Below are positions 16,201 to 45,345 of a stretch of 64,000 nt of DNA, piece after piece; position 1 is the stretch's first letter, and every line of letters starts with the position of its first letter. Both the position numbers and the translations under genes were made by a program. Source of the stretch: the human T2T-CHM13v2.0 reference genome, Homo sapiens. Under the pieces are notes generated by a model. The model was not told the DNA's origin. It searched no databases and saw only the letters and a list, made by a program, of their open reading frames with translations. The stretch spans positions 32,416,001-32,480,000 of the forward strand of contig CP086569.2 of assembly GCA_009914755.4 (NCBI GenBank), written 5' to 3'.

Positions 16201-16859
16201 TAGAATGGACACGAATGCTCAAATTAAATGGACTCGAATGGAATGGAAACGAAAGGAATGTCATCGAATGGAATTGAATCGATTGGAATGACATCGCATA
16301 GAATGGAGTGGAATCAAATGGAATTGAATCGAAAGGAAAGGAAGCGAATGGACTGAAATGAAATGGAATGGAATTGAATGGAAAGTAATGCAATGGAATA
16401 GAATGGAACGAAATTTCACGGAATGGAATCAAACTGAATGGAATCAAATCAATGGAATCAAATCAAATGGAATGGAAAGGAATTGAATGGAGTAGATGGG
16501 ATTGGATGGGATTGGAATGAAATGTACTGGAAAGGACTCGAATTTCATGAAACGGAATGGAATGAATTGGAACGGAATGGACTCGAATGGAATGGAATGT
16601 CATGGGATGGCATCAAATGGAATGGCATCAAATGGAATGGAATCGAATGCAGTGGAATGCTATGGAATGGAATGGAATGCATTGGAATGGAATGTCCTCT
16701 AATGGAATGGATTCGAGTGGAATGGAATTGAATATAATGGAGTCGAATGAAATGGAATTGAAAGGAATGGGATCGAATACAATGGAATATACTGGAATGT
16801 AACGTAATGAACTCGAATGTAATTGACTGGAATGGAATGTACATGAATGGAATGTAATC
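13286..16859. repeat. HOR unit 5 (3574 bp), 'C'-like subtype; first unit of a diverged copy of the dimeric super-repeat
   Basis: Landmark at 13286. Shares GCRKK, FRQPS, VVCNAIDW, PVHPRKFH and RIDCNG markers with units 7, 9 and 11. Has a 305-aa minus ORF at 15039-15956. Confidence 0.8.
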
Positions 16860-19800: not shown

Positions 19801-20438
19801 AATTAAATGGACTCGAATGGAATGGAAACGAAAGGAATGTCATCGAATGGAATTGAATCGATTGGAATGAAATCGCATAGAATGGAGTGGAATCAAATGG
19901 AATTGAATCGAAAGGAAAGGAAGCGAATGGACTGAAATGAAATGGAATGGAATTGAATGGAAAGTAATGCAATGGAATAGAATGGAACGAAATTTCACGG
20001 AATGGAATCAAACTGAATGGAATCAAATCAATGGAATCAAATCAAATGGAATGGAAAGGAATTGAATGGAGTAGATGGGATTGGATGGGATTGGAATGAA
20101 ATGTACTGGAAAGGACTCGAATTTCATGAAACGGAATGGAATGAATTGGAACGGAATGGACTCGAATGGAATGGAATGTCATGGGATGGCATCAAACGGA
20201 ATGGCATCAAATGGAATGGAATCGAATGCAATGGAATGCTATGGAATGGAATGGAATGCATTGGAATGGAATGTCCTCTAATGGAATGGATTCGAGTGGA
20301 ATGGAATTGAATATAATGGAGTCGAATGAAATGGAATTGAAAGGAATGGGATCGAATACAATGGAATATACTGGAATGTAACGTAATGAACTCGAATGTA
20401 ATTGACTGGAATGGAATGTACATGAATGGAATGTAATC
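16860..20438. repeat. HOR unit 6 (3579 bp), mosaic: 3' half 'D'-like, 5' half like units 1–4
   Basis: Landmark at 16860. 3' half carries GIKRNG, MGWHQTEW, SKGIECN and a 165-aa minus ORF, as in units 8 and 10. 5' half carries GSRKK, FREPS and ARNRM, as in units 1–4. Confidence 0.8.
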
Positions 20439-23400
20439 GAATGGAAAGTAATCCAATGGAATAGAATCTAATGCAATAAAATCGACTCAGATAGAGTAGA
20501 ATGTAATGGAATGGAGTGCAGTGCAATGGAATGGAATGGAATAGAATGCAATGGAATGGAATGGAATGGAATGGGATGGAATGGTATGGAATGGATAGTA
20601 ATGGACTGGAGTGAAATGGACTGGAAAGGAATGGACTCAAATTGAAAGGGCACGAAAGGAATGGAGTCAAATGGAATGGTCTGGAATGGAATGAACACGA
20701 ATGTAATGCAACCCAATAGAATGGAATCGAATGGCATGGAATATAAAGAAATGGAATCGAAGAGAATGGAAACAAATGGAATGGAATTGAATGGAATGGG
20801 AACGAATGGAGTGAAATTGTATGCAGTAGAAGTGAATAGAATGGAATGCAAGCGAAAGGAAAGGAATGGATTGGAATGGAATGGAATTCATTGGAATGGA
20901 AGGGAATGTAGTGTAATGGACAGGCCTGGAATAAAGTGGAATGCTACGGTCTCGAATGGAATAAAAATGTATGGAATGGAATGCAATGAAACGGAATCGA
21001 ATGTCATAGAATGTAATGGAATGCAAAAAAATGGAATCCAAAATCATTGACTGGAAAGGCTGGGTGTCGAAAGGAATTGACTCCAATGGAATGGAATCGA
21101 ATGGAATGGAAGTGAATAGAATCGAACTAAATCGAATGGAATGGAATTGATAGGAACGGAATGGAAAGGAATGCAATGATTTGGCATGGAATGGAATCGA
21201 ATGGCATCGAATGGAATGGAATGGAATGCAATGGAATGGAATGTATTAGAATGGAATGAACTTTAATGGAATGTACTCGAATGGATTCGACTGGAATGGA
21301 ATGTTCTGGAAGTGAATGGACTCCAATGGAATGGATTCAAAAGGAATGGAATCGTACGGAATGGAATCTAATGGAATGGAATTAAATGGAAATGAATCAA
21401 ATTGAATAGCACGGAATTGAATTGAATGGAATGGAATGCAATGGAATCTAATGAAACGGAAAGGAAAGGAATGGAATGGAATGGAATGGGCTGGAATGGA
21501 AAGGAATCGAAACGAATGGAATGGAATCGAACTGAAGAGACTGGAATGGAATGCACTGGAATGGAAGGGAGTGTAATGGAAGGTTGTCGAAAAAAATGGA
21601 ATCGAATGGAATGGAATTGAATGGAACGGAATAGAGTCGAATGGAATTGAATGGAATGGAATGGACTAGAGTGAAATGGAATCGAACCACAAGGAATGGA
21701 CAGGAATAGAATGGTCTCGAATTGAATGGAATCGTATGGAATGGCATCAAACGGAATGGAATGGACAGCCACGGAATGGAATGCACTCGAATGCAATGGA
21801 GTCGAAACTAATGGACTGGAATAGAATGGACTCGACTGGTACGGACTCCAATGGAATGGAATCGAATGGAAGGGAATCGAACGGAAGGGAATCGAACGGA
21901 ATGGACTCGAAGGGAAAAGACTGCAATGGAAAGGTCTCGAATGGAATGGAAATTAATGGAATGGAATGGAATCGAATGAAATGGAGTCAAAAGGAATGGA
22001 ATCGAATGGCAAGAAATCTAATGTAATGGAATCGCCAGGAATTGATGTGAACGGAACGGAATGGAATGGAATCCAAAGGAATGGAATAGAATGGAATGGA
22101 ATCGAATGGAAAGGACTCCAATGGAAATCACTCGAATAGAATGCAATTTAATAAAATAGGATCAAATGTAATGGAATGGAATGGAAAGGAATCGAAACGA
22201 AAGGAATGGAGACAGATGGAATGGAATGGAACAGAGAGCAATGGTATAGAATGGAATGGAATCATCTGGAATGGAATTGAATGGAATGGAATAATATGAA
22301 ATGGAATGGAATGGAATGGAGTGGAATGCCCTTGAATTAAATGGACTGGAATGGAATGGACTCAAACAGAGTGGAATGGAAAGTGTGGAGATAGAATGGA
22401 ATGAACTCCTTTGGAATGGTGTAGTATGCAATGCAATCGACTGGCAGGGAATCAAAAGAAATGTAATCGAATGGATTGGACTGGAATGCAATGGACTCGA
22501 ATAGATTGGAAACGGAATGCAAAGGAATGGAATGGAATAGTATGGAATGCAATGGAAGGGAATGGAGTGGAATAGACTAGAGTGGAATGGAATGGACTGG
22601 AAAGCAATGGACTGGAATGGAACTTTCTTGGATGGACTGGAATCAAACGGAATGGAATGCAATGCAATCAAATGGCATGGAATAAAATAGAATGAAAGAG
22701 AATCAAATGGAATTGAATCGAATGGAATCGAATGGATTGGAAATGAATAGAATGGAATGGAATGGAATGGACTCAAATGGAATGGACTAGAATGGAATGG
22801 ATTCGAATGGAAGGCAAAGGAATGGAATCTATTGGAATGGACTGTAATGGAATGGAATGGAAGGGATTGGAATGGACTCGAATGGAATGGACTGCAATAG
22901 AAAGGATTCGAATGGAATGAAAAAGAATTGAATGGAATAGAACAGAATGGAATCAAATCGAATGAAATGGAATGGAATAGAAAGGAATGGAATGAAATGG
23001 AATGGAAAGGATTCGAATGGAATGCAATCGAATGGAATGGAATCGAACGGAATGGAATAAAATGGAAGAAAACTGGCAAGAAATGGAATCGAAATGAATG
23101 GAGTGTTATGGAACGGACTCAAACGGAATTGAATGTAATAGAATGGAGTGGAGTGGACTCGAATATAATGGACTGGAATGGAATGAAATCACATGGAATG
23201 GGAACGAATGGAATGGAATGGAAAGGAATGGAATCGAATGGAAAGGAATCGAATGGAAGGGAATGAAATTGAATCAACAGGAATGGAAGGGAATAGAATA
23301 GACTGTAATGGAATGGACTCGAATAGAATGGACACGAATGCTCAAATTAAATGGACTCGAATGGAATGGAAACGAAAGGAATGTCATCGAATGGAATTGA

Positions 23401-23982
23401 ATCGATTGGAATGAAATCGCATAGAATGGAGTGGAATCAAATGGAATTGAATCGAAAGGAAAGGAAGCGAATGGACTGAAATGAAATGGAATGGAATTGT
23501 ATGGAAAGTAATGCAATGGAATAGAATGGAACGAAATTTCACGGAATGGAATCAAACTGAATGGAATCAAATCAATGGAATCAAATCAAATGGAATGGAA
23601 AGGAATTGAATGGAGTAGATGGGATTGGATGGGATTGGAATGAAATGTACTGGAAAGGACTCGAATTTCATGAAACGGAATGGAATGAATTGGAACGGAA
23701 TGGACTCGAATGGAATGGAATGTCATGGGATGGCATCAAATGGAATGGCATCAAATGGAATGGAATCGAATGCAATGGAATGCTGTGGAATGGAATGGAA
23801 TGCATTGGAATGGAATGTCCTCTAATGGAATGGATTCGAGTGGAATGGAATTGAATATAATGGAGTCGAATGAAATGGAATTGAAAGGAATGGGATCGAA
23901 TACAATGGAATATACTGGAATGTAACGTAATGAACTCGAATGTAATTGACTGGAATGGAATGTACATGAATGGAATGTAATC
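20439..23982. repeat. HOR unit 7 (3544 bp), subtype 'C'
   Basis: Landmark at 20439. Markers: ISFDSLPVD, IRLHFF, SNGIECN, YFPYNS, MECCGMEW, NAVEW. 305-aa minus ORF 22162-23079. Confidence 0.85.
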
Positions 23983-26900
23983 GAATGGAAAGTAATCCAA
24001 TGGAATAGAATCTAATGCAATAAAATCGACTCAGATAGAGTAGAATGTAATGGAATGGAGTGCAGTGCAATGGAATGGAATGGAATGGAATGCAATGGAA
24101 TGGAATGGAATGGAATGGAATGGAATGGAATGGGATGGAATGGTATGGAATGGATAGTAATAGACTGGAGTGAAATGGACTGGAAAGGAATGGACTCAAA
24201 TTGAAAGGGCTCGAAAGGAATGGAGTCAAATGGAATGGTCTGGAATGGAATGAACACGAATGTAATGCAACCCAATAGAATGGAATCGAATGGCATGGAA
24301 TATAAAGAAATGGAATCGAAGAGAATGGAAACAAATGGAATGGAATTGAATGGAATGGAATTGAATGGAATGGGAACGAATGGAGTGAAATTGTATGCAG
24401 TAGAAGAGAATAGAATGGAATGCAAGCGAAAGGAAAGGAATGGATTGGAATGGAATGGAATTCATTGGAATGGAAGGGAATGTAGTGTAATGGACAGGCC
24501 TGGAATAAAGTGGAATGCTACGGTCTCGAATGGAATAAAAATGTATGGAATGGAATGCAATGAAACGGAATCGAATGTCATAGAATGTAATGGAATGCAA
24601 AAAAATGGAATCCAAAATCATTGACTGGAAAGGCTGGGTGTCGAAAGGAATTGACTCCAATGGAATGGAATCGAATGGAATGGAAGTGAATAGAATCGAA
24701 CTAAATCGAATGGAATGGAATTGATAGGAACGGAATGGAAAGGAATGCAATGATTTGGCATGGAATGGAATCGAATGGCATCGAATGGAATGGAATGGAA
24801 TGCAATGGAATGGAATGTATTAGAATGTAATGAACTTTAATGGAATGTACTCGAATGGATTCGACTGGAATGGAATGTTCTGGAAGTGAATGGACTCCAA
24901 TGGAATGGATTCAAAAGGAATGGAATCGTACGGAATGGAATCTAATGGAATGGAATTAAATGGAAATGAATCAAATTGAATAGCACGGAATTGAATTGAA
25001 TGGAATGGAATGCAATGGAATCTAATGAAACGGAAAGGAAAGGAATGGAATGGAATGGAATGGGCTGGAATGGAAAGGAATCGAAACGAATGGAATGGAA
25101 TCGAACTGAAGAGACTGGAATGGAATGCACTGGAATGGAAGGGAGTGTAATGGAAGGTTGTCGAAAAAAATGGAATCGAATGGAATGGAATTGAATGGAA
25201 CGGAATAGAGTCGAATGGAATTGAATGGAATGGAATGGACTAGAGTGAAATGGAATCGAACCACAAGGAATGGACAGGAATAGAATGGTCTCGAATTGAA
25301 TGGAATCGTATGGAATGGCATCAAACGGAATGGAATGGACAGCCACGGAATGGAATGCACTCGAATGCAATGGAGTCGAAACTAATGGACTGGAATAGAA
25401 TGGACTCGACTGGTACGGACTCCAATGGAATGGAATCGAATGGAAGGGAATCGAACGGAAGGGAATCGAACGGAATGGACTCGAAGGGAAAAGACTGCAA
25501 TGGAAAGGTCTCGAATGGAATGGAAATTAATGGAATGGAATGGAATCGAATGAAATGGAGTCAAAAGGAATGGAATCGAATGGCAAGAAATCTAATGTAA
25601 TGGAATCGCCAGGAATTGATGTGAACGGAACGGAATGGAATGGAATCCAAAGGAATGGAATAGAATGGAATGGAATCGAATGGAAAGGACTCCAATGGAA
25701 ATCACTCGAATAGAATGCAATTTAATAAAATAGGATCAAATGTAATGGAATGGAATGGAAAGGAATCGAAACGAAAGGAATGGAGACAGATGGAATGGAA
25801 TGGAACAGAGAGCAATGGTATAGAATGGAATGGAATCATCTGGAATGGAATTGAATGGAATGGAATAATATGAAATGGAATGGAATGGAATGGAATGGAA
25901 TGCCCTTGAATTAAATGGACTGGAATGGAATGGACTCAAACAGAGTGGAATGGAAAGTGTGGAGATAGAATGGAATGAACTCCTTTGGAATGGTGTAGTA
26001 TGCAATGCAATCGACTGGCAGGGAATCAAAAGGAATGTAATCGAATGGATTGGACTGGAATGCAATGGACTCGAATAGATTGGAAACGGAATGCAAAGGA
26101 ATGGAATGGAATAGTATGGAATGCAATGGAAGGGAATGGAGTGGAATAGACTAGAGTGGAATGGAATGGACTGGAAAGCAATGGACTGGAATGGAACTTT
26201 CTTGGATGGACTGGAACCAAACGGAATGGAATGCAATGCAATCAAATGGCATGGAATAAAATAGAATGAAAGAGAATCAAATGGAATTGAATCGAATGGA
26301 ATCGAATGGATTGGAAAGGAATAGAATGGAATGGAATGGAATTGACTCAAATTGAATGGACTAGAATGGAATGGATTCGAATGGAAGGCAAAGGAATGGA
26401 ATCTATTGGAATGGACTGTAATGGAATGGAATGGAAGGGATTGGAATGGACTCGAATGGAATGGACTGCAATAGAAAGGATTCGAATGGAATGAAAAAGA
26501 ATTGAATGGAATAGAACAGAATGGAATCAAATCGAATGAAATGGAATGGAATAGAAAGGAATGGAATGAAATGGAATGGAAAGGATTCGAATGGAATGCA
26601 ATCGAATGGAATGGAATCGAACGGAATGGAATAAAATGGAAGAAAACTGGCAAGAAATGGAATCGAAATGAATGGAGTGTTATGGAACGGACTCAAAAGG
26701 AATTGAATGTAATAGAATGGAGTGGAGTGGACTCGAATATAATGGACTGGAATGGAATGAAATCACATGGAATGGGAACGAATGGAATGGAATGGAAAGG
26801 AATGGAATCGAATGGAAAGGAATCGAATGGAAGGGAATGAAATTGAATCAACAGGAATGGAAGGGAATAGAATAGACTGTAATGGAATGGACTCGAATAG

Positions 26901-27556
26901 AATGGACACGAATGCTCAAATTAAATGGACTCGAATGGAATGGAAACGAAAGGAATGTCATCGAATGGAATTGAATCGATTGGAATGAAATCGCATAGAA
27001 TGGAGTGGAATCAAATGGAATTGAATCGAAAGGAAAGGAAGCGAATGGACTGAAATGAAATGGAATGGAATTGAATGGAAAGTAATGCAATGGAATAGAA
27101 TGGAACGAAATTTCACGGAATGGAATCAAACTGAATGGAATCAAATCAATGGAATCAAATCAAATGGAATGGAAAGGAATTGAATGGAGTAGATGGGATT
27201 GGATGGGATTGGAATGAAATGTACTGGAAAGGACTCGAATTTCATGAAACGGAATGGAATGAATTGGAACGGAATGGACTCGAATGGAATGGAATGTCAT
27301 GGGATGGCATCAAACGGAATGGCATCAAATGGAATGGAATCGAATGCAATGGAATGCTATGGAATGGAATGGAATGCATTGGAATGGAATGTCCTCTAAT
27401 GGAATGGATTCGAGTGGAATGGAATTGAATATAATGGAGTCGAATGAAATGGAATTGAAAGGAATGGGATCGAATACAATGGAATATACTGGAATGTAAC
27501 GTAATGAACTCGAATGTAATTGACTGGAATGGAATGTACATGAATGGAATGTAATC
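23983..27556. repeat. HOR unit 8 (3574 bp), subtype 'D'
   Basis: Landmark at 23983. Markers: RLVPVHP, TQIEW, SKGIECN, GIKRNGIKWNG, MGWHQTEW. The pure GGAAT tract near the unit start is longer than in subtype C (137-aa versus 127-aa minus ORF). Confidence 0.85.
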
Positions 27557-30500
27557 GAATGGAAAGTAATCCAATGGAATAGAATCTAATGCAATAAAAT
27601 CGACTCAGATAGAGTAGAATGTAATGGAATGGAGTGCAGTGCAATGGAATGGAATGGAATGGAATGGAATGGAATGGAATGGAATGGAATGGGATGGAAT
27701 GGTATGGAATGGATAGTAATGGACTGGAGTGAAATGGACTGGAAAGGAATGGACTCAAATTGAAAGGGCACGAAAGGAATGGAGTCAAATGGAATGGTCT
27801 GGAATGGAATGAACACGAATGTAATGCAACCCAATAGAATGGAATCGAATGGCATGGAATATAAAGAAATGGAATCGAAGAGAATGGAAACAAATGGAAT
27901 GGAATTGAATGGAATGGGAACGAATGGAGTGAAATTGTATGCAGTAGAAGTGAATAGAATGGAATGCAAGCGAAAGGAAAGGAATGGATTGGAATGGAAT
28001 GGAATTCATTGGAATGGAAGGGAATGTAGTGTAATGGACAGGCCTGGAATAAAGTGGAATGCTACGGTCTCGAATGGAATAAAAATGTATGGAATGGAAT
28101 GCAATGAAACGGAATCGAATGTCATAGAATGTAATGGAATGCAAAAAAATGGAATCCAAAATCATTGACTGGAAAGGCTGGGTGTCGAAAGGAATTGACT
28201 CCAATGGAATGGAATCGAATGGAATGGAAGTGAATAGAATCGAACTAAATCGAATGGAATGGAATTGATAGGAACGGAATGGAAAGGAATGCAATGATTT
28301 GGCATGGAATGGAATCGAATGGCATCGAATGGAATGGAATGGAATGCAATGGAATGGAATGTATTAGAATGGAATGAACTTTAATGGAATGTACTCGAAT
28401 GGATTCGACTGGAATGGAATGTTCTGGAAGTGAATGGACTCCAATGGAATGGATTCAAAAGGAATGGAATCGTACGGAATGGAATCTAATGGAATGGAAT
28501 TAAATGGAAATGAATCAAATTGAATAGCACGGAATTGAATTGAATGGAATGGAATGCAATGGAATCTAATGAAACGGAAAGGAAAGGAATGGAATGGAAT
28601 GGAATGGGCTGGAATGGAAAGGAATCGAAACGAATGGAATGGAATCGAACTGAAGAGACTGGAATGGAATGCACTGGAATGGAAGGGAGTGTAATGGAAG
28701 GTTGTCGAAAAAAATGGAATCGAATGGAATGGAATTGAATGGAACGGAATAGAGTCGAATGGAATTGAATGGAATGGAATGGACTAGAGTGAAATGGAAT
28801 CGAACCACAAGGAATGGACAGGAATAGAATGGTCTCGAATTGAATGGAATCGTATGGAATGGCATCAAACGGAATGGAATGGACAGCCACGGAATGGAAT
28901 GCACTCGAATGCAATGGAGTCGAAACTAATGGACTGGAATAGAATGGACTCGACTGGTACGGACTCCAATGGAATGGAATCGAATGGAAGGGAATCGAAC
29001 GGAAGGGAATCGAACGGAATGGACTCGAAGGGAAAAGACTGCAATGGAAAGGTCTCGAATGGAATGGAAATTAATGGAATGGAATGGAATCGAATGAAAT
29101 GGAGTCAAAAGGAATGGAATCGAATGGCAAGAAATCTAATGTAATGGAATCGCCAGGAATTGATGTGAACGGAACGGAATGGAATGGAATCCAAAGGAAT
29201 GGAATAGAATGGAATGGAATCGAATGGAAAGGACTCCAATGGAAATCACTCGAATAGAATGCAATTTAATAAAATAGGATCAAATGTAATGGAATGGAAT
29301 GGAAAGGAATCGAAACGAAAGGAATGGAGACAGATGGAATGGAATGGAACAGAGAGCAATGGTATAGAATGGAATGGAATCATCTGGAATGGAATTGAAT
29401 GGAATGGAATAATATGAAATGGAATGGAATGGAATGGAGTGGAATGCCCTTGAATTAAATGGACTGGAATGGAATGGACTCAAACAGAGTGGAATGGAAA
29501 GTGTGGAGATAGAATGGAATGAACTCCTTTGGAATGGTGTAGTATGCAATGCAATCGACTGGCAGGGAATCAAAAGAAATGTAATCGAATGGATTGGACT
29601 GGAATGCAATGGACTCGAATAGATTGGAAACGGAATGCAAAGGAATGGAATGGAATAGTATGGAATGCAATGGAAGGGAATGGAGTGGAATAGACTAGAG
29701 TGGAATGGAATGGACTGGAAAGCAATGGACTGGAATGGAACTTTCTTGGATGGACTGGAATCAAACGGAATGGAATGCAATGCAATCAAATGGCATGGAA
29801 TAAAATAGAATGAAAGAGAATCAAATGGAATTGAATCGAATGGAATCGAATGGATTGGAAATGAATAGAATGGAATGGAATGGAATTGACTCAAATGGAA
29901 TGGACTAGAATGGAATGGATTCGAATGGAAGGCAAAGGAATGGAATCTATTGGAATGGACTGTAATGGAATGGAATGGAAGGGATTGGAATGGACTCGAA
30001 TGGAATGGACTGCAATAGAAAGGATTCGAATGGAATGAAAAAGAATTGAATGGAATAGAACAGAATGGAATCAAATCGAATGAAATGGAATGGAATAGAA
30101 AGGAATGGAATGAAATGGAATGGAAAGGATTCGAATGTAATGCAATCGAATGGAATGGAATCGAACGGAATGGAATAAAATGGAAGAAAACTGGCAAGAA
30201 ATGGAATCGAAATGAATGGAGTGTTATGGAACGGACTCAAACGGAATTGAATGTAATAGAATGGAGTGGAGTGGACTCGAATATAATGGACTGGAATGGA
30301 ATGAAATCACATGGAATGGGAACGAATGGAATGGAATGGAAAGGAATGGAATCGAATGGAAAGGAATCGAATGGAAGGGAATGAAATTGAATCAACACGA
30401 ATGGAAGGGAATAGAATAGACTGTAATGGAATGGACTCGAATAGAATGGACACGAATGCTCAAATTAAATGGACTCGAATGGAATGGAAACGAAAGGAAT

Positions 30501-31100
30501 GTCATCGAATGGAATTGAATCGATTGGAATGAAATCGCATAGAATGGAGTGGAATCAAATGGAATTGAATCGAAAGGAAAGGAAGCGAATGGACTGAAAT
30601 GAAATGGAATGGAATTGTATGGAAAGTAATGCAATGGAATAGAATGGAACGAAATTTCACGGAATGGAATCAAACTGAATGGAATCAAATCAATGGAATC
30701 AAATCAAATGGAATGGAAAGGAATTGAATGGAGTAGATGGGATTGGATGGGATTGGAATGAAATGTACTGGAAAGGACTCGAATTTCATGAAACGGAATG
30801 GAATGAATTGGAACGGAATGGACTCGAATGGAATGGAATGTCATGGGATGGCATCAAATGGAATGGCATCAAATGGAATGGAATCGAATGCAATGGAATG
30901 CTGTGGAATGGAATGGAATGCATTGGAATGGAATGTCCTCTAATGGAATGGATTCGAGTGGAATGGAATTGAATATAATGGAGTCGAATGAAATGGAATT
31001 GAAAGGAATGGGATCGAATACAATGGAATATACTGGAATGTAACGTAATGAACTCGAATGTAATTGACTGGAATGGAATGTACATGAATGGAATGTAATC
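27557..31100. repeat. HOR unit 9 (3544 bp), subtype 'C'
   Basis: Landmark at 27557. Same marker set as unit 7, plus CITF and FECNAIEW shared with unit 11. Confidence 0.85.
27643..27692. repeat. Example of a pure (GGAAT)~10 tract at the start of each HOR unit; its length varies between units
   Basis: Uninterrupted 'ggaatggaatggaat...' run ending at 'gggatgg'. The distance from the unit start to the first conserved ORF is 222, 237, 242, 247 or 257 bp in different units. These differ by pentamer copy number. Confidence 0.75.
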
Positions 31101-34100
31101 GAATGGAAAGTAATCCAATGGAATAGAATCTAATGCAATAAAATCGACTCAGATAGAGTAGAATGTAATGGAATGGAGTGCAGTGCAATGGAATGGAATG
31201 GAATGGAATGCAATGGAATGGAATGGAATGGAATGGAATGGAATGGAATGGGATGGAATGGTATGGAATGGATAGTAATAGACTGGAGTGAAATGGACTG
31301 GAAAGGAATGGACTCAAATTGAAAGGGCTCGAAAGGAATGGAGTCAAATGGAATGGTCTGGAATGGAATGAACACGAATGTAATGCAACCCAATAGAATG
31401 GAATCGAATGGCATGGAATATAAAGAAATGGAATCGAAGAGAATGGAAACAAATGGAATGGAATTGAATGGAATGGAATTGAATGGAATGGGAACGAATG
31501 GAGTGAAATTGTATGCAGTAGAAGAGAATAGAATGGAATGCAAGCGAAAGGAAAGGAATGGATTGGAATGGAATGGAATTCATTGGAATGGAAGGGAATG
31601 TAGTGTAATGGACAGGCCTGGAATAAAGTGGAATGCTACGGTCTCGAATGGAATAAAAATGTATGGAATGGAATGCAATGAAACGGAATCGAATGTCATA
31701 GAATGTAATGGAATGCAAAAAAATGGAATCCAAAATCATTGACTGGAAAGGCTGGGTGTCGAAAGGAATTGACTCCAATGGAATGGAATCGAATGGAATG
31801 GAAGTGAATAGAATCGAACTAAATCGAATGGAATGGAATTGATAGGAACGGAATGGAAAGGAATGCAATGATTTGGCATGGAATGGAATCGAATGGCATC
31901 GAATGGAATGGAATGGAATGCAATGGAATGGAATGTATTAGAATGTAATGAACTTTAATGGAATGTACTCGAATGGATTCGACTGGAATGGAATGTTCTG
32001 GAAGTGAATGGACTCCAATGGAATGGATTCAAAAGGAATGGAATCGTACGGAATGGAATCTAATGGAATGGAATTAAATGGAAATGAATCAAATTGAATA
32101 GCACGGAATTGAATTGAATGGAATGGAATGCAATGGAATCTAATGAAACGGAAAGGAAAGGAATGGAATGGAATGGAATGGGCTGGAATGGAAAGGAATC
32201 GAAACGAATGGAATGGAATCGAACTGAAGAGACTGGAATGGAATGCACTGGAATGGAAGGGAGTGTAATGGAAGGTTGTCGAAAAAAATGGAATCGAATG
32301 GAATGGAATTGAATGGAACGGAATAGAGTCGAATGGAATTGAATGGAATGGAATGGACTAGAGTGAAATGGAATCGAACCACAAGGAATGGACAGGAATA
32401 GAATGGTCTCGAATTGAATGGAATCGTATGGAATGGCATCAAACGGAATGGAATGGACAGCCACGGAATGGAATGCACTCGAATGCAATGGAGTCGAAAC
32501 TAATGGACTGGAATAGAATGGACTCGACTGGTACGGACTCCAATGGAATGGAATCGAATGGAAGGGAATCGAACGGAAGGGAATCGAACGGAATGGACTC
32601 GAAGGGAAAAGACTGCAATGGAAAGGTCTCGAATGGAATGGAAATTAATGGAATGGAATGGAATCGAATGAAATGGAGTCAAAAGGAATGGAATCGAATG
32701 GCAAGAAATCTAATGTAATGGAATCGCCAGGAATTGATGTGAACGGAACGGAATGGAATGGAATCCAAAGGAATGGAATAGAATGGAATGGAATCGAATG
32801 GAAAGGACTCGAATGGAAATCACTCGAATAGAATGCAATTTAATAAAATAGGATCAAATGTAATGGAATGGAATGGAAAGGAATCGAAACGAAAGGAATG
32901 GAGACAGATGGAATGGAATGGAACAGAGAGCAATGGTATAGAATGGAATGGAATCATCTGGAATGGAATTGAATGGAATGGAATAATATGAAATGGAATG
33001 GAATGGAATGGAATGGAATGCCCTTGAATTAAATGGACTGGAATGGAATGGACTCAAACAGAGTGGAATGGAAAGTGTGGAGATAGAATGGAATGAACTC
33101 CTTTGGAATGGTGTAGTATGCAATGCAATCGACTGGCAGGGAATCAAAAGGAATGTAATCGAATGGATTGGACTGGAATGCAATGGACTCGAATAGATTG
33201 GAAACGGAATGCAAAGGAATGGAATGGAATAGTATGGAATGCAATGGAAGGGAATGGAGTGGAATAGACTAGAGTGGAATGGAATGGACTGGAAAGCAAT
33301 GGACTGGAATGGAACTTTCTTGGATGGACTGGAACCAAACGGAATGGAATGCAATGCAATCAAATGGCATGGAATAAAATAGAATGAAAGAGAATCAAAT
33401 GGAATTGAATCGAATGGAATCGAATGGATTGGAAAGGAATAGAATGGAATGGAATGGAATTGACTCAAATTGAATGGACTAGAATGGAATGGATTCGAAT
33501 GGAAGGCAAAGGAATGGAATCTATTGGAATGGACTGTAATGGAATGGAATGGAAGGGATTGGAATGGACTCGAATGGAATGGACTGCAATAGAAAGGATT
33601 CGAATGGAATGAAAAAGAATTGAATGGAATAGAACAGAATGGAATCAAATCGAATGAAATGGAATGGAATAGAAAGGAATGGAATGAAATGGAATGGAAA
33701 GGATTCGAATGGAATGCAATCGAATGGAATGGAATCGAACGGAATGGAATAAAATGGAAGAAAACTGGCAAGAAATGGAATCGAAATGAATGGAGTGTTA
33801 TGGAACGGACTCAAAAGGAATTGAATGTAATAGAATGGAGTGGAGTGGACTCGAATATAATGGACTGGAATGGAATGAAATCACATGGAATGGGAACGAA
33901 TGGAATGGAATGGAAAGGAATGGAATCGAATGGAAAGGAATCGAATGGAAGGGAATGAAATTGAATCAACAGGAATGGAAGGGAATAGAATAGACTGTAA
34001 TGGAATGGACTCGAATAGAATGGACACGAATGCTCAAATTAAATGGACTCGAATGGAATGGAAACGAAAGGAATGTCATCGAATGGAATTGAATCGATTG

Positions 34101-34674
34101 GAATGAAATCGCATAGAATGGAGTGGAATCAAATGGAATTGAATCGAAAGGAAAGGAAGCGAATGGACTGAAATGAAATGGAATGGAATTGAATGGAAAG
34201 TAATGCAATGGAATAGAATGGAACGAAATTTCACGGAATGGAATCAAACTGAATGGAATCAAATCAATGGAATCAAATCAAATGGAATGGAAAGGAATTG
34301 AATGGAGTAGATGGGATTGGATGGGATTGGAATGAAATGTACTGGAAAGGACTCGAATTTCATGAAACGGAATGGAATGAATTGGAACGGAATGGACTCG
34401 AATGGAATGGAATGTCATGGGATGGCATCAAACGGAATGGCATCAAATGGAATGGAATCGAATGCAATGGAATGCTATGGAATGGAATGGAATGCATTGG
34501 AATGGAATGTCCTCTAATGGAATGGATTCGAGTGGAATGGAATTGAATATAATGGAGTCGAATGAAATGGAATTGAAAGGAATGGGATCGAATACAATGG
34601 AATATACTGGAATGTAACGTAATGAACTCGAATGTAATTGACTGGAATGGAATGTACATGAATGGAATGTAATC
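31101..34674. repeat. HOR unit 10 (3574 bp), subtype 'D'
   Basis: Landmark at 31101. Same marker set as unit 8. The 305-aa ORF at 32854 lies exactly 7118 bp from its homologue at 25736. Confidence 0.85.
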
Positions 34675-37600
34675 GAATGGAAAGTAATCCAATGGAATAG
34701 AATCTAATGCAATAAAATCGACTCAGATAGAGTAGAATGTAATGGAATGGAGTGCAGTGCAATGGAATGGAATGGAATGGAATGGAATGGAATGGAATGG
34801 AATGGAATGGGATGGAATGGTATGGAATGGATAGTAATGGACTGGAGTGAAATGGACTGGAAAGGAATGGACTCAAATTGAAAGGGCACGAAAGGAATGG
34901 AGTCAAATGGAATGGTCTGGAATGGAATGAACACGAATGTAATGCAACCCAATAGAATGGAATCGAATGGCATGGAATATAAAGAAATGGAATCGAAGAG
35001 AATGGAAACAAATGGAATGGAATTGAATGGAATGGGAACGAATGGAGTGAAATTGTATGCAGTAGAAGTGAATAGAATGGAATGCAAGCGAAAGGAAAGG
35101 AATGGATTGGAATGGAATGGAATTCATTGGAATGGAAGGGAATGTAGTGTAATGGACAGGCCTGGAATAAAGTGGAATGCTACGGTCTCGAATGGAATAA
35201 AAATGTATGGAATGGAATGCAATGAAACGGAATCGAATGTCATAGAATGTAATGGAATGCAAAAAAATGGAATCCAAAATCATTGACTGGAAAGGCTGGG
35301 TGTCGAAAGGAATTGACTCCAATGGAATGGAATCGAATGGAATGGAAGTGAATAGAATCGAACTAAATCGAATGGAATGGAATTGATAGGAACGGAATGG
35401 AAAGGAATGCAATGATTTGGCATGGAATGGAATCGAATGGCATCGAATGGAATGGAATGGAATGCAATGGAATGGAATGTATTAGAATGTAATGAACTTT
35501 AATGGAATGTACTCGAATGGATTCGACTGGAATGGAATGTTCTGGAAGTGAATGGACTCCAATGGAATGGATTCAAAAGGAATGGAATCGTACGGAATGG
35601 AATCTAATGGAATGGAATTAAATGGAAATGAATCAAATTGAATAGCACGGAATTGAATTGAATGGAATGGAATGCAATGGAATCTAATGAAACGGAAAGG
35701 AAAGGAATGGAATGGAATGGAATGGGCTGGAATGGAAAGGAATCGAAACGAATGGAATGGAATCGAACTGAAGAGACTGGAATGGAATGCACTGGAATGG
35801 AAGGGAGTGTAATGGAAGGTTGTCGAAAAAAATGGAATCGAATGGAATGGAATTGAATGGAACGGAATAGAGTCGAATGGAATTGAATGGAATGGAATGG
35901 ACTAGAGTGAAATGGAATCGAACCACAAGGAATGGACAGGAATAGAATGGTCTCGAATTGAATGGAATCGTATGGAATGGCATCAAACGGAATGGAATGG
36001 ACAGCCACGGAATGGAATGCACTCGAATGCAATGGAGTCGAAACAAATGGACTGGAATAGAATGGACTCGACTGGTACGGACTCCAATGGAATGGAATCG
36101 AATGGAAGGGAATCGAACGGAAGGGAATCGAACGGAATGGACTCGAAGGGAAAAGACTGCAATGGAAAGGTCTCGAATGGAATGGAAATTAATGGAATGG
36201 AATGGAATCGAATGAAATGGAGTCAAAAGGAATGGAATCGAATGGCAAGAAATCTAATGTAATGGAATCGCCAGGAATTGATGTGAACGGAACGGAATGG
36301 AATGGAATCCAAAGGAATGGAATAGAATGGAATGGAATCGAATGGAAAGGACTCCAATGGAAATCACTCGAATAGAATGCAATTTAATAAAATAGGATCA
36401 AATGTAATGGAATGGAATGGAAAGGAATCGAAACGAAAGGAATGGAGACAGATGGAATGGAATGGAACAGAGAGCAATGGTATAGAATGGAATGGAATCA
36501 TCTGGAATGGAATTGAATGGAATGGAATAATATGAAATGGAATGGAATGGAATGGAGTGGAATGCCCTTGAATTAAATGGACTGGAATGGAATGGACTCA
36601 AACAGAGTGGAATGGAAAGTGTGGAGATAGAATGGAATGAACTCCTTTGGAATGGTGTAGTATGCAATGCAATCGACTGGCAGGGAATCAAAAGAAATGT
36701 AATCGAATGGATTGGACTGGAATGCAATGGACTCGAATAGATTGGAAACGGAATGCAAAGGAATGGAATGGAATAGTATGGAATGCAATGGAAGGGAATG
36801 GAGTGGAATAGACTAGAGTGGAATGGAATGGACTGGAAAGCAATGGACTGGAATGGAACTTTCTTGGATGGACTGGAATCAAACGGAATGGAATGCAATG
36901 CAATCAAATGGCATGGAATAAAATAGAATGAAAGAGAATCAAATGGAATTGAATCGAATGGAATCGAATGGATTGGAAATGAATAGAATGGAATGGAATG
37001 GAATTGACTCAAATGGAATGGACTAGAATGGAATGGATTCGAATGGAAGGCAAAGGAATGGAATCTATTGGAATGGACTGTAATGGAATGGAATGGAAGG
37101 GATTGGAATGGACTCGAATGGAATGGACTGCAATAGAAAGGATTCGAATGGAATGAAAAAGAATTGAATGGAATAGAACAGAATGGAATCAAATCGAATG
37201 AAATGGAATGGAATAGAAAGGAATGGAATGAAATGGAATGGAAAGGATTCGAATGTAATGCAATCGAATGGAATGGAATCGAACGGAATGGAATAAAATG
37301 GAAGAAAACTGGCAAGAAATGGAATCGAAATGAATGGAGTGTTATGGAACGGACTCAAACGGAATTGAATGTAATAGAATGGAGTGGAGTGGACTCGAAT
37401 ATAATGGACTGGAATGGAATGAAATCACATGGAATGGGAACGAATGGAATGGAATGGAAAGGAATGGAATCGAATGGAAAGGAATCGAATGGAAGGGAAT
37501 GAAATTGAATCAACAGGAATGGAAGGGAATAGAATAGACTGTAATGGAATGGACTCGAATAGAATGGACACGAATGCTCAAATTAAATGGACTCGAATGG

Positions 37601-38218
37601 AATGGAAACGAAAGGAATGTCATCGAATGGAATTGAATCGATTGGAATGAAATCGCATAGAATGGAGTGGAATCAAATGGAATTGAATCGAAAGGAAAGG
37701 AAGCGAATGGACTGAAATGAAATGGAATGGAATTGTATGGAAAGTAATGCAATGGAATAGAATGGAACGAAATTTCACGGAATGGAATCAAACTGAATGG
37801 AATCAAATCAATGGAATCAAATCAAATGGAATGGAAAGGAATTGAATGGAGTAGATGGGATTGGATGGGATTGGAATGAAATGTACTGGAAAGGACTCGA
37901 ATTTCATGAAACGGAATGGAATGAATTGGAACGGAATGGACTCGAATGGAATGGAATGTCATGGGATGGCATCAAATGGAATGGCATCAAATGGAATGGA
38001 ATCGAATGCAATGGAATGCTGTGGAATGGAATGGAATGCATTGGAATGGAATGTCCTCTAATGGAATGGATTCGAGTGGAATGGAATTGAATATAATGGA
38101 GTCGAATGAAATGGAATTGAAAGGAATGGGATCGAATACAATGGAATATACTGGAATGTAACGTAATGAACTCGAATGTAATTGACTGGAATGGAATGTA
38201 CATGAATGGAATGTAATC
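34675..38218. repeat. HOR unit 11 (3544 bp), subtype 'C'
   Basis: Landmark at 34675. ORF set is near-identical to unit 9. The homologous ORFs 29280 and 36398 are exactly 7118 bp apart. Confidence 0.85.
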
Positions 38219-41200
38219 GAATGGAAAGTAATCCAATGGAATAGAATCTAATGCAATAAAATCGACTCAGATAGAGTAGAATGTAATGGAATGGAGTGCA
38301 GTGCAATGGAATGGAATGGAATGGAATGCAATGGAATGGAATGGAATGGAATGGAATGGAATGGAATGGAATGGAATGGGATGGAATGGTATGGAATGGA
38401 TAGTAATAGACTGGAGTGAAATGGACTGGAAAGGAATGGACTCAAATTGAAAGGGCTCGAAAGGAATGGAGTCAAATGGAATGGTCTGGAATGGAATGAA
38501 CACGAATGTAATGCAACCCAATAGAATGGAATCGAATGGCATGGAATATAAAGAAATGGAATCGAAGAGAATGGAAACAAATGGAATGGAATTGAATGGA
38601 ATGGAATTGAATGGAATGGGAACGAATGGAGTGAAATTGTATGCAGTAGAAGAGAATAGAATGGAATGCAAGCGAAAGGAAAGGAATGGATTGGAATGGA
38701 ATGGAATTCATTGGAATGGAAGGGAATGTAGTGTAATGGACAGGCCTGGAATAAAGTGGAATGCTACGGTCTCGAATGGAATAAAAATGTATGGAATGGA
38801 ATGCAATGAAACGGAATCGAATGTCATAGAATGTAATGGAATGCAAAAAAATGGAATCCAAAATCATTGACTGGAAAGGCTGGGTGTCGAAAGGAATTGA
38901 CTCCAATGGAATGGAATCGAATGGAATGGAAGTGAATAGAATCGAACTAAATCGAATGGAATGGAATTGATAGGAACGGAATGGAAAGGAATGCAATGAT
39001 TTGGCATGGAATGGAATCGAATGGCATCGAATGGAATGGAATGGAATGCAATGGAATGGAATGTATTAGAATGTAATGAACTTTAATGGAATGTACTCGA
39101 ATGGATTCGACTGGAATGGAATGTTCTGGAAGTGAATGGACTCCAATGGAATGGATTCAAAAGGAATGGAATCGTACGGAATGGAATCTAATGGAATGGA
39201 ATTAAATGGAAATGAATCAAATTGAATAGCACGGAATTGAATTGAATGGAATGGAATGCAATGGAATCTAATGAAACGGAAAGGAAAGGAATGGAATGGA
39301 ATGGAATGGGCTGGAATGGAAAGGAATCGAAACGAATGGAATGGAATCGAACTGAAGAGACTGGAATGGAATGCACTGGAATGGAAGGGAGTGTAATGGA
39401 AGGTTCTCGAAAAAAATGGAATCGAATGGAATGGAATTGAATGGAACGGAATAGAGTCGAATGGAATTGAATGGAATGGAATGGACTAGAGTGAAATGGA
39501 ATCGAACCACAAGGAATGGACAGGAATAGAATGGTCTCGAATTGAATGGAATCGTATGGAATGGCATCAAACGGAATGGAATGGACAGCCACGGAATGGA
39601 ATGCACTCGAATGCAATGGAGTCGAAACAAATGGACTGGAATAGAATGGACTCGACTGGTACGGACTCCAATGGAATGGAATCGAATGGAAGGGAATCGA
39701 ACGGAAGGGAATCGAACGGAATGGACTCGAAGGGAAAAGACTGCAATGGAAAGGTCTCGAATGGAATGGAAATTAATGGAATGGAATGGAATCGAATGAA
39801 ATGGAGTCAAAAGGAATAGAATCGAATGGCAAGAAATCGAATGTAATGGAATCGCCAGGAATTGATGTGAACGGAACGGAATGGAATGGAATCCAAAGGA
39901 ATGGAATAGAATGGAATGGAATCGAATGGAAAGGACTCGAATGGAAATCACTCGAATAGAATGCAATTTAATAAAATAGGATCAAATGTAATGGAATGGA
40001 ATGGAAAGGAATCGAAACGAAAGGAATGGAGACAGATGGAATGGAATGGAACAGAGAGCAATGGTATAGAATGGAATGGAATCATCTGGAATGGAATTGA
40101 ATGGAATGGAATAATATGAAATGGAATGGAATGGAATGGAATGGAATGCCCTTGAATTAAATGGACTGGAATGGAATGGACTCAAACAGAGTGGAATGGA
40201 AAGTGTGGAGATAGAATGGAATGAACTCCTTTGGAATGGTGTAGTATGCAATGCAATCGACTGGCAGGGAATCAAAAGGAATGTAATCGAATGGATTGGA
40301 CTGGAATGCAATGGACTCGAATAGATTGGAAACGGAATGCAAAGGAATGGAATGGAATAGTATGGAATGCAATGGAAGGGAATGGAGTGGAATAGACTAG
40401 AGTGGAATGGAATGGACTGGAAAGCAATGGACTGGAATGGAACTTTCTTGGATGGACTGGAACCAAACGGAATGGAATGCAATGCAATCAAATGGCATGG
40501 AATAAAATAGAATGAAAGAGAATCAAATGGAATTGAATCGAATGGAATCGAATGGATTGGAAAGGAATAGAATGGAATGGAATGGAATTGACTCAAATGG
40601 AATGGACTAGAATGGAATGGATTCGAATGGAAGGCAAAGGAATGGAATCTATTGGAATGGACTGTAATGGAATGGAATGGAAGGGATTGGAATGGACTCG
40701 AATGGAATGGACTGCAATAGAAAGGATTCGAATGGAATGAAAAAGAATTGAATGGAATAGAACAGAATGGAATCAAATCGAATGAAATGGAATGGAATAG
40801 AAAGGAATGGAATGAAATGGAATGGAAAGGATTCGAATGGAATGCAATCGAATGGAATGGAATCGAACGGAATGGAATAAAATGGAAGAAAACTGGCAAG
40901 AAATGGAATCGAAATGAATGGAGTGTTATGGAACGGACTCAAAAGGAATTGAATGTAATAGAATGGAGTGGAGTGGACTCGAATATAATGGACTGGAATG
41001 GAATGAAATCACATGGAATGGGAACGAATGGAATGGAATGGAAAGGAATGGAATCGAATGGAAAGGAATCGAATGGAAGGGAATGAAATTGAATCAACAG
41101 GAATGGAAGGGAATAGAATAGACTGTAATGGAATGGACTCGAATAGAATGGACACGAATGCTCAAATTAAATGGACTCGAATGGAATGGAAACGAAAGGA

Positions 41201-41802
41201 ATGTCATCGAATGGAATTGAATCGATTGGAATGAAATCGCATAGAATGGAGTGGAATCAAATGGAATTGAATCGAAAGGAAAGGAAGCGAATGGACTGAA
41301 ATGAAATGGAATGGAATTGAATGGAAAGTAATGCAATGGAATAGAATGGAACGAAATTTCACGGAATGGAATCAAACTGAATGGAATCAAATCAATGGAA
41401 TCAAATCAAATGGAATGGAAAGGAATTGAATGGAGTAGATGGGATTGGATGGGATTGGAATGAAATGTACTGGAAAGGACTCGAATTTCATGAAACGGAA
41501 TGGAATGAATTGGAACGGAATGGACTCGAATGGAATGGAATGTCATGGGATTGCATCAAATGGAATGGCATCAAATGGAATGGAATCGAATGCAATGGAA
41601 TGCTATGGAATGGAATGGAATGCATTGGAATGGAATGTCCTCTAATGGAATGGATTCGAGTGGAATGGAATTGAATATAATGGAGTCGAATGAAATGGAA
41701 TTGAAAGGAATGGGATCGAATACAATGGAATATACTGGAATGTAACGTAATGAACTCGAATGTAATTGACTGGAATGGAATGTACATGAATGGAATGTAA
41801 TC
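38219..41802. repeat. HOR unit 12 (3584 bp), subtype 'D' with private variants
   Basis: Landmark at 38219. RLVPVHP, SKGIECN and a 165-aa ORF as in units 8 and 10. Private changes: TQMEW, MSWDCIKWNG, MGLHQMEW. Confidence 0.82.
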
Positions 41803-44800: not shown

Positions 44801-45345
44801 CAAATGGAATTGAATCGAAAGGAAAGGAAGCGAATGGACTGAAATGAAATGGAATGGAATTGAATGGAAAGTAATGCAATGGAATAGAATGGAACGAAAT
44901 TTCACGGAATGGAATCAAACTGAATGGAATCAAATCAATGGAATCAAATCAAATGGAATGGAAAGGAATTGAATGGAGTAGATTGGATTGGATGGGATTG
45001 GAATGAAATGTACTGGAAAGGACTCGAATTTCATGAAACGGAATGGAATGAATTGGAACGGAATGGACTCGAATGGAATGGAATGTCATGGAATGGTATC
45101 AAATGGAATGCCATCAAATGGAATGGAATCGAATGCAATGGAATGTTATGGAATGGAATGGAATGCATTGGAATGGAATGTCCTCTAATGGAATGGATTC
45201 GAGTGGAATGGAATCGAATATAATGGAGTCGAATGAAATGGAATTGAAAGGAATGGGATCGAATACAATGGAATATACTGGAATGTAATGTAATGAACTC
45301 GAATGTAATTGACTGGAATGGAATGTACATGAATGGAATGTAATC
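41803..45345. repeat. HOR unit 13 (3543 bp), subtype 'B', near-identical to unit 2
   Basis: Landmark at 41803. The 109-aa minus ORF 43526-43855 is identical to 5272-5601 in unit 2. MKSKLTD variant as in units 1–3. Confidence 0.85.

What the first reader, a model, noticed from the sequence alone, without database searches (positions are those of the whole stretch)
20439..41802. Dimeric (~7.12 kb) super-higher-order repeat: strict alternation of two unit subtypes with exact 7118 bp spacing
Units 7, 9 and 11 (subtype C) share one marker set: ISFDSLPVD, IRLHFF, SNGIECN, YFPYNS, MECCGMEW, NAVEW, and a short initial GGAAT tract. Units 8, 10 and 12 (subtype D) share a different set: RLVPVHP, TQIEW, SKGIECN, GIKRNGIKWNG, MGWHQTEW, and a tract about 15 bp longer. 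Homologous ORF starts are exactly 7118 bp apart twice in a row. Units 9 and 11 differ by about one substitution per kb or less. This indicates very recent amplification or homogenisation acting on a two-unit register rather than on single 3.55 kb units. Units 5+6 (13286-20438) form a more diverged, mosaic fourth copy.
Basis: seen in the sequence. Interest (0 to 1): 0.55.

Follow-up and report, generated by a model that had tools for sequence, protein, structure and literature searches.

The report
Two-unit duplication in human DYZ1 satellite
This is the well-known DYZ1 satellite of the human Y chromosome long arm, and the "dimeric super-repeat" is a real but local and ordinary feature: a 7.1-kb pair of neighbouring repeat units was copied in tandem twice in the recent past.

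Summary
The whole 64-kb window is human Yq12 DYZ1 (HSat3A6) satellite: 18 full units and one partial unit of about 3.55 kb. They are 98.9–99.55 % identical to a published DYZ1 clone. The reported alternation is real. U7/U9/U11 (3544 bp) and U8/U10 (3574 bp) interleave with exact 7118-bp spacing. Two-unit dimers differ by only 4–6 substitutions in 7118 bp with no gaps, whereas adjacent units differ by about 16 substitutions plus two 15-bp indels. Exact matches of 2.2–2.7 kb at lag 7118 cross both kinds of unit junction, so contiguous DNA was duplicated. The pattern is local, at 3–3.5 copies (U6–U12). Flanking units are not in this register. None of 61 independent public DYZ1 contigs carries the alleles private to either subtype. 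The best explanation is two successive unequal sister-chromatid exchanges offset by two units, plus short gene-conversion patches. With the published Yq12 mutation rate, these events date to about 700–2000 generations ago. This process is already documented for Yq12, so the "super-HOR" label overstates the finding. Interest is low.

The parts
1..64000 (.). Uninterrupted human DYZ1 / HSat3A6 satellite array: 18 full units and one partial unit of about 3.55 kb. The + strand is the GGAAT strand, the reverse complement of the published TTCCA strand.
   Evidence: The HSat3A6-specific 24-mer hits 33 times, while 13 other HSat2/3 subfamily 24-mers hit 0 times. There is one HaeIII and one EcoRI site per unit. 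Six of 8 published DYZ1 primers hit once per unit. HaeIII fragments are 98.9-99.55 % identical to the published clone MZT1a.
13286..16859 (.). U5: a long-type unit (3574 bp) that is not C-like. It lies outside the duplicated block.
   Evidence: It is 5.9-6.2 substitutions per kb from U7/9/11, and has 2 indels relative to them but none relative to U8/U10. It carries many private substitutions.
16860..20438 (.). U6: the older D-like left flank ('D-alpha', 3579 bp). The exact lag-7118 register starts at 16976, just after its 8-pentamer tract.
   Evidence: It differs from U8 by 9 substitutions and 1 indel. An exact run spans 16976-18041 at lag 7118. It shares 190A and 3354C with U8/U10.
20439..23982 (.). 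U7: subtype C (3544 bp), the oldest of the three C copies.
   Evidence: It lacks the derived tract C>G and col-2638 T that U9 and U11 share.
23983..27556 (.). U8: subtype D (3574 bp). I infer it is a hybrid 'H' unit.
   Evidence: It differs from U10 by 1 substitution. The private 2397T allele is shared only with U10.
27557..31100 (.). U9: subtype C (3544 bp).
   Evidence: It differs from U11 by 3 substitutions.
31101..34674 (.). U10: subtype D (3574 bp).
34675..38218 (.). U11: subtype C (3544 bp).
38219..41802 (.). U12: the D-like mosaic right flank ('D-beta', 3584 bp). Its tract has 9 pentamers. After that tract it matches U10 exactly up to 39405, then diverges.
   Evidence: It differs from U10 by 7 substitutions and +10 bp. 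An exact run at lag 7128 spans 31212-32277, with its partner at 38340-39405.
20439..39405 (.). The youngest, near-identical layer of the two-unit duplication, about 19 kb (C-H-C-H-C plus the 5' third of U12).
   Evidence: There are about 10 mismatches in 10.8 kb at exact lag 7118. Exact runs span 20550-22768, 23281-25692, 25694-28371 and 28928-30397.
24099..24133 (.). The variable (AATGG)n tract. It has 7 pentamers in D units (also 31217-31251) and 4 in C units (20555-20574, 27673-27692, 34791-34810). It has 8 in U6 and 9 in U12.
24327..24383 (.). The second 15-bp indel site. The long form (an extra AATTGAATGGAATGG) is in D units, also at 17209-17265, 31445-31501 and 38573-38629. The short form is in C units, at 20768-20809, 27886-27927 and 35004-35045.
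   Evidence: Zero of 26 external DYZ1 copies carry the short form.

Best explanation
The window is a stretch of the human Y-chromosome long-arm satellite DYZ1 (HSat3A6). Within it, a contiguous two-unit segment of 7118 bp (a 3544-bp 'C' unit plus a 3574-bp 'D' unit) was duplicated in tandem twice. The likely mechanism is unequal sister-chromatid exchange (or an equivalent replication-coupled misalignment) between units two positions out of register. This produced D'-C-D-C-D-C-D'' (U6-U12).

Inferred history:
1. The ancestral arrangement was U6-like D, then C, then U12-like D.
2. A first exchange between the two D units created a hybrid D (today's U8/U10) and a second C.
3. A short gene-conversion patch copied C alleles (cols 1188-1721, including 1621T) into the hybrid.
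4. A second exchange duplicated the [D C] pair, so that U8+U9 gave rise to U10+U11.

The C unit is itself a recombinant. Its first ~435 columns carry the 'short' haplotype of U1-3/U13 (two 15-bp deletions, 239A, 435T). The rest is long-type sequence with five private substitutions.

Shown directly: the identity of the satellite, the alternation, the exact spacing, the continuity of identity across unit junctions, the mosaic allele patterns and the locality of the block. Inferred: the mechanism, the order of events and the dates. No function is implied for the dimer. It is a neutral by-product of array turnover.
For: Identity of the satellite: together (T2T-Y: DYZ1 is a ~3.6-kb HSat3 nested repeat with copies >98 % identical).

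Alternation and spacing.

Duplication of contiguous DNA: the exact runs 23281-25692 and 25694-28371 at lag 7118 span the U7/U8 and U8/U9 boundaries.

Common descent of the C copies: five private substitutions and two 15-bp indels are in perfect linkage.

Order of events: U9 and U11 share two derived alleles that U7 lacks. U8+U9 versus U10+U11 is the closest dimer pair, at 4 substitutions in 7118 bp.

Hybrid nature of U8/U10: 2251C is shared only with U12, and 3354C is shared with U6 but not U12.

Conversion patch: 1621T occurs only in U7-U11, across both subtypes.

Locality: lag-1 and lag-2 divergence are equal outside the block, and C- and D-private alleles are absent from 61 external DYZ1 contigs.

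The mechanism is documented for this region:
- A four-generation pedigree shows about one de novo SV per Y transmission, 2,416-4,839 bp in size, which corresponds to one to two whole DYZ2 units. In the same study, 29 % of Yq12 de novo SNVs look like interlocus gene conversion.

Dating with the published Yq12 rate of 3.86e-7 per bp per generation puts the youngest event at about 730 generations (95 % Poisson 200-1860). The earlier event falls at about 1100-2000 generations, and the C/D split at about 5800 generations.
Against: - The hybrid model rests on very few informative sites (2251C, 3354C), and U12 has several changes of its own. Other event orders, or a single replication-based triplication followed by conversion, fit almost as well.
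- The C-unit and D-unit trees are not congruent: (U7,(U9,U11)) versus ((U8,U10),U12). This requires U12 to be a pre-existing flank or to have been altered later.
- A permutation test on unit order alone is weak: 3.6 % of the 720 orderings of six units do as well.
- I could not examine reads, so assembly correctness is assumed.
- The external contigs are mostly short-read consensus collapses, which under-sample minority variants. Their lack of C and D alleles is therefore only weak evidence of rarity.
Confidence: 0.85

Rival explanations
1. A genuine, emerging 7.1-kb higher-order repeat of DYZ1: the C-D dimer is the unit of homogenisation across a large domain of this array or Y lineage, and the window shows only its edge.
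For: Lag-2 identity exceeds lag-1 identity across U6-U12. The short/long length alternation continues formally through U13-U14. A second two-unit-register pair, U1/U3 at lag 7091, exists at the left edge of the window.
Against: Both flanks of the block lie inside the window and are out of pattern: U5 is not C-like, and U13 and U14 are 9-13 substitutions per kb from C and D. There are only 3-3.5 copies. C- and D-private alleles are absent from 61 external DYZ1 contigs. The literature reports a 3,569-bp modal unit and no 7.1-kb unit.
Confidence: 0.07
2. Register-2 gene conversion without duplication: an older short/long alternating arrangement was homogenised in place by conversion between units two apart.
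For: Interlocus gene conversion is frequent in Yq12 (29 % of de novo SNVs; 17 %). Patchy allele sharing is visible in the window, for example 1621T across subtypes and the U11/U12 sharing of 1411A.
Against: Identity at lag 7118 is continuous over more than 14 kb, including across every unit junction, and all indel states are identical. This would need conversion tracts longer than a unit, repeatedly and always at offset 2. Duplication needs only two events.
Confidence: 0.05
3. Assembly artefact: a near-identical loop in the assembly graph was traversed too many times, creating false extra dimer copies.
For: Yq12 is among the hardest regions to assemble, and loop or path errors in tandem repeats are reported for Verkko Y assemblies.
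Against: Each copy carries its own variants: U7 105A and 2387G; U9 2898C; U11 866T and 1421A; U8 1731C. A mis-traversed loop would give identical copies. The 7.1-kb period is well within HiFi and ONT read lengths.
Confidence: 0.03

Closest known systems
DYZ1 / HSat3A6, the ~3.56-kb HaeIII repeat of human Yq12
   Same: The pentamer base (GGAAT/TTCCA), unit length, single HaeIII and EcoRI sites, the subfamily-specific 24-mer and the published primers all match. Identity to a published clone is 98.9-99.55 %.
   Different: None at the family level. In this window the HaeIII fragments are 3543-3584 bp and none has the published modal 3,569 bp. Seven of the 17 units that could be scored carry a second 15-bp deletion that is not seen in 26 external copies.
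De novo whole-unit and two-unit structural variants in Yq12 (Porubsky et al. 2025, PMC12240836), and iterative tandem duplications in T2T-Y Yq12 (Rhie et al. 2023)
   Same: Both are copy-number changes in register with whole satellite units, attributed to unequal exchange between sister chromatids and accompanied by interlocus gene conversion.
   Different: The pedigree events were observed in DYZ2 (2.4-kb units), and the T2T-Y events are described at scales up to 5 Mb. Here the event is a 7.1-kb, two-unit step in DYZ1, fixed in this chromosome and about 10^3 generations old rather than de novo.
Alpha-satellite HOR structural variants, HOR haplotypes and 'cascading'/super-HORs (from my own knowledge; the titles appeared in the listing)
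   Same: In both, a period that is a multiple of the basic repeat shows higher identity than adjacent repeats do, and the structure is generated by unequal crossover.
   Different: Alpha-satellite HORs are homogenised over hundreds to thousands of copies and define arrays. This is a 3-3.5-copy local block within an array whose organising period remains one unit.

Membership tests
DYZ1 / HSat3A6 (human Yq12 satellite) | Built from diverged GGAAT/TTCCA pentamers | tested here: met
   Read directly from the sequence. Autocorrelation peaks fall at multiples of 5.
DYZ1 / HSat3A6 (human Yq12 satellite) | A ~3.56-kb tandem unit with a single HaeIII site (the classical 3.4/3.56-kb male-specific HaeIII band) | tested here: met
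   There are 19 GGCC sites, one per unit. Fragments are 3513-3584 bp, plus two deletion variants of 2646 and 2671 bp.
DYZ1 / HSat3A6 (human Yq12 satellite) | Carries the HSat3A6-specific 24-mer and no marker of other HSat2/3 subfamilies (Altemose 2014 table) | tested here: met
   33 hits for HSat3A6 and 0 for the 13 other subfamily 24-mers.
DYZ1 / HSat3A6 (human Yq12 satellite) | High identity to a published cloned DYZ1 unit, and matches to published DYZ1 primers | tested here: met
   98.9-99.55 % identity to clone MZT1a from PMC3925983. Six of 8 primers match once per unit, in order.
DYZ1 / HSat3A6 (human Yq12 satellite) | Male-specific location on Yq12, interspersed with DYZ2 blocks | not testable with these tools
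   The window holds no DYZ2 or unique flank, and no human assembly is available here. Altemose 2014 lists a minor chr7 localisation for HSat3A6.
Higher-order repeat with a 7.1-kb (two-unit) period | Copies one period apart are more alike than adjacent sub-units | tested here: met
   Within U7-U12, the mean divergence is 4.57 substitutions per kb at lag 1, 1.12 at lag 2, 4.8 at lag 3 and 1.97 at lag 4.
Higher-order repeat with a 7.1-kb (two-unit) period | The period is maintained over many tandem copies and defines the array or a large domain | tested here: not met
   Only 3-3.5 copies are present, with both edges inside the window. Outside the block, divergence is 9.9 per kb at lag 1 and 9.7 at lag 2.
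Higher-order repeat with a 7.1-kb (two-unit) period | The sub-unit types recur in other arrays or individuals | tested here: inconclusive
   No C- or D-private allele is present in the 61 external DYZ1 contigs (between 30 and 58 copies scored per site). Most of these contigs are short-read consensus collapses, and the two ~55-kb long-read contigs are too error-prone to use.

The most novel reading that the evidence does not exclude
The C-D dimer may be a nascent higher-order unit that is spreading in this particular Y lineage. Under this reading the same 7118-bp dimer, or other two-unit registers such as U1/U3, occupies substantial parts of this or neighbouring DYZ1 blocks. That would capture the birth of a new HOR layer in HSat3, a process so far characterised mainly for alpha satellite.
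Probability: 0.07. Interest if true: 0.35.

Novelty: new member of a known kind. Interest (0 to 1): 0.12.

Why it matters
It matters little on its own. It is a clean small-scale example of how Yq12 heterochromatin turns over: whole-unit-register unequal exchange plus short conversion patches. It can be dated with the published Yq12 mutation rate to about 10^3 generations ago, so it is probably specific to one Y lineage. Blocks like this could serve as structural markers within Y haplogroups, as test cases for assembly validation in DYZ1, and as calibration points for rates of multi-unit duplication versus conversion. It does not change the accepted picture of DYZ1 as a ~3.56-kb repeat.

Tried and rejected
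1. A literature search for the classic sexing primers I recalled from memory found no paper. I used primers and a clone sequence from PMC3925983 instead.
2. The built-in the repeat finder on 13286-45345 was swamped by pentamer-level self-similarity. It returned about 2000-copy families at 10/15-bp spacing and gave nothing at the unit level.
3. MAFFT --localpair misplaced the tail of the deletion variants U4 and U15. I used the --auto alignment for those units.
4. The search for independent long DYZ1 arrays failed. Metagenome and genome scans gave 51 contaminant contigs, but the two ~55-kb long-read contigs are too noisy (anchors 69-80 of 80) to resolve 0.1-0.5 % differences.
5. The exact-protein lookup of satellite 'ORFs' gave only collapsed contigs of 3.7 kb or less, and two of the three ORFs tried were not on record.
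6. The literature search for a DYZ1 'dimer' or a 7.1-kb unit found nothing relevant.
7. I considered and rejected reading the long ORFs as genes. (GGAAT)n is stop-free in most frames, and no Pfam hit is recorded for any called product.
Full report
**What the sequence is.** The window is uniform (GGAAT)n-derived satellite, with GC 0.38-0.40 and strong G>C and A>T skew throughout. An 80-nt anchor recurs 19 times and defines 18 complete units and one partial unit. Unit lengths are 3499-3584 bp, except for two deletion variants of 2646 and 2671 bp.

Several tests identify the satellite:
- Each unit has one HaeIII site and one EcoRI site.
- The HSat3A6-specific 24-mer published by Altemose et al. 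2014 (PMC4022460) occurs 33 times. The diagnostic 24-mers of the 13 other HSat2/3 subfamilies occur 0 times.
- Six of the eight DYZ1 primers of PMC3925983 hit once per unit in the expected order.
- Every HaeIII fragment of the window is 98.9-99.55 % identical to the 3564-bp DYZ1 clone printed in that paper's supplement.

The window is therefore human Yq12 DYZ1. Rhie et al. 2023 describe DYZ1 as a Y-specific HSat3 subfamily of ~3.6-kb nested tandem repeats that are >98 % identical. The Y location itself cannot be tested here, because the window contains no flanking sequence.

**Check of the observation.** In 20439-41802 the units measure 3544, 3574, 3544, 3574, 3544 and 3584 bp, so homologous points are exactly 7118 bp apart twice in either register.

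- Ungapped autocorrelation is 0.91 at lag 7118 and 0.785 at lags 3544 and 3574.
- In a MAFFT alignment of all units, U7/U9/U11 differ by 0.8-1.7 substitutions per kb and U8/U10/U12 by 0.3-2.2. The two sets differ from each other by 4.2-5.6.
- Whole-dimer global alignments give 6 substitutions and 0 gaps for U7+U8 versus U9+U10, and 4 and 0 for U8+U9 versus U10+U11. U9+U10 versus U11+U12 gives 10 substitutions and 1 gap. Unrelated dimers of the window differ by 42-93 substitutions.

C and D (U8, U10) differ at 12 fixed substitutions plus two 15-bp indels. One indel is in the (AATGG)n tract (4 versus 7 pentamers). The other is an AATTGAATGGAATGG block about 230 bp downstream. Five substitutions are private to U7/9/11 among the 18 units, which excludes chance.

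Several corrections are needed:
- A number of 'D markers' are simply the common allele, or are missing from U12.
- The length difference is 30 bp, not about 15 bp.
- U12 is a mosaic.
- The in-register stretch starts within U6, at 16976.
- U5 is not C-like.

**Anatomy and history.** At exact lag 7118 the register holds from about 16976 to about 31250, with about 19 mismatches in 14.2 kb. The exact runs 20550-22768, 23281-25692, 25694-28371 and 28928-30397 cross both the C->D and D->C unit junctions. The copied object was therefore contiguous DNA longer than a unit, not individual units.

The C unit is a recombinant. Its first ~435 alignment columns carry the 'short' haplotype of U1-3/U13/U17 (both 15-bp deletions and 239A; 435T is shared only with U1-3 and U13). 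From column 1401 onward it carries the long-type alleles plus five private changes.

The block is flanked on both sides by older D-like units. U6 differs from U8 by 9 substitutions. U12 is identical to U10 up to window position 39405, apart from a longer tract, and then diverges.

Other informative allele patterns:
- U8/U10 share 2251C only with U12.
- U8/U10 share 3354C with U6 but not with U12.
- 1621T occurs only in U7-U11, across both subtypes.
- U9 and U11 share two derived alleles that U7 lacks.

The most economical history, which is inference, has four steps:
1. The ancestral arrangement was U6-like D, then C, then U12-like D.
2. An unequal exchange between the two D units, offset by two units, created a hybrid D and a second C.
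3. A conversion patch ran from C into the hybrid.
4. A second exchange duplicated [D C], so that U8+U9 became U8+U9+U10+U11.

Using the Yq12-specific rate of 3.86e-7 per bp per generation (PMC12240836), the youngest event is about 730 generations old (95 % Poisson interval 200-1860). The earlier event is about 1100-2000 generations old, and the C/D split about 5800 generations. These figures are rough, because some differences are conversions rather than point mutations.

**Is it a 'super-HOR'?** No. Both edges of the block lie inside the window. Outside the block, neighbours (9.9 substitutions per kb) and next-neighbours (9.7) are equally diverged.

I scanned public collections with an allele-degenerate probe. 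This recovered 51 contaminant human DYZ1 contigs from metagenomes and 'bacterial' assemblies. That matches the contamination noted by Rhie et al.. An exact-ORF lookup added 10 more contigs.

None of these contigs carries any of the five C-private alleles or the D-private alleles. Between 30 and 58 copies could be scored per site. None of 26 copies carries the second 15-bp deletion. The caveat is that most of these contigs are short-read consensus collapses.

Published work gives 3,569 bp as the modal DYZ1 unit. I found no description of a 7.1-kb unit.

**Mechanism in context.** Yq12 is known to evolve by unequal exchange:
- T2T-Y shows iterative tandem duplications, and sister-chromatid exchanges in about 15 % of Strand-seq libraries.
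- Pedigrees show about one de novo SV per Y transmission, each affecting entire DYZ2 repeat unit(s) and sized 2,416-4,839 bp (one to two units). They also show a large share of conversion-like SNVs.

A two-unit-register duplication in DYZ1 is what this process predicts.

**Rivals.** I considered three alternatives:
- A true nascent HOR (confidence 0.07).
- Register-2 conversion without duplication (0.05). This is disfavoured by the unbroken identity across junctions and the identical indel states.
- An assembly artefact (0.03). This is disfavoured because every copy has its own variants, but it cannot be tested without reads.

**Verdict.** The feature is an ordinary local product of satellite turnover in a well-known family, and its interest is low.

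Noticed in passing
window 9182-13285 and 47463-51591: U4 (2646 bp) and U15 (2671 bp) share the same ~903-bp internal deletion. They differ by only 2 substitutions although they lie 38.3 kb apart. The similarity extends about 1.2-1.5 kb upstream into the 3' ends of U3 and U14 (3 substitutions after col 2403 versus 36 before). It does not extend downstream (U5 versus U16: 34 substitutions). This may be a remnant of an 11-unit duplication or a long-range conversion of about 4 kb.
   Followed up: partly
window 1-10639: U1 and U3 differ by 1.7 substitutions per kb, while U2 is 4.2 and 3.7 per kb from them. Exact runs at lag 7091 span 1-1447 and 1449-2836. This is a second two-unit-register pair, cut off by the window edge, and it suggests that such steps are common in this array.
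   Followed up: partly
whole window: There is a 15-bp sub-periodicity. Ungapped autocorrelation is higher at lag 15 (0.688) than at lag 5 (0.642). Nearly all indels between units are multiples of 5 bp, and most are exactly 15 bp. The repeat finder also returns 10/15-bp spacings.
   Followed up: no
whole window (HaeIII fragments): No HaeIII fragment has the published modal DYZ1 length of 3,569 bp; lengths here are 3513-3584 bp. The 'short' 5' module, carrying the second 15-bp deletion, is present in 7 of the 17 units that could be scored but in 0 of 26 external DYZ1 copies. This part of the array therefore carries locally enriched minority variants.
   Followed up: partly
window 45346-62201 (U14-U18): The right third of the window is much more heterogeneous, with 10-16 substitutions per kb between neighbours. 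In the left two-thirds, neighbours mostly differ by 4-6 per kb and at most by about 9. This suggests a boundary between a recently homogenised domain and an older one.
   Followed up: no
L045-L051 (genome contigs) and L001-L044 (metagenome contigs): Human DYZ1 sequence sits in public 'bacterial' genome records and in many metagenome assemblies, which is human male DNA contamination. Examples include Actinomadura cremea JCM 3308, several Streptomyces JCM strains and a Nitrosocosmicus MAG. Two ~55-kb long-read metagenome contigs (BNJT01001888.1, BNJU01004413.1) carry multiple DYZ1 probe hits and are probably largely DYZ1, though I read only parts of them.
   Followed up: partly
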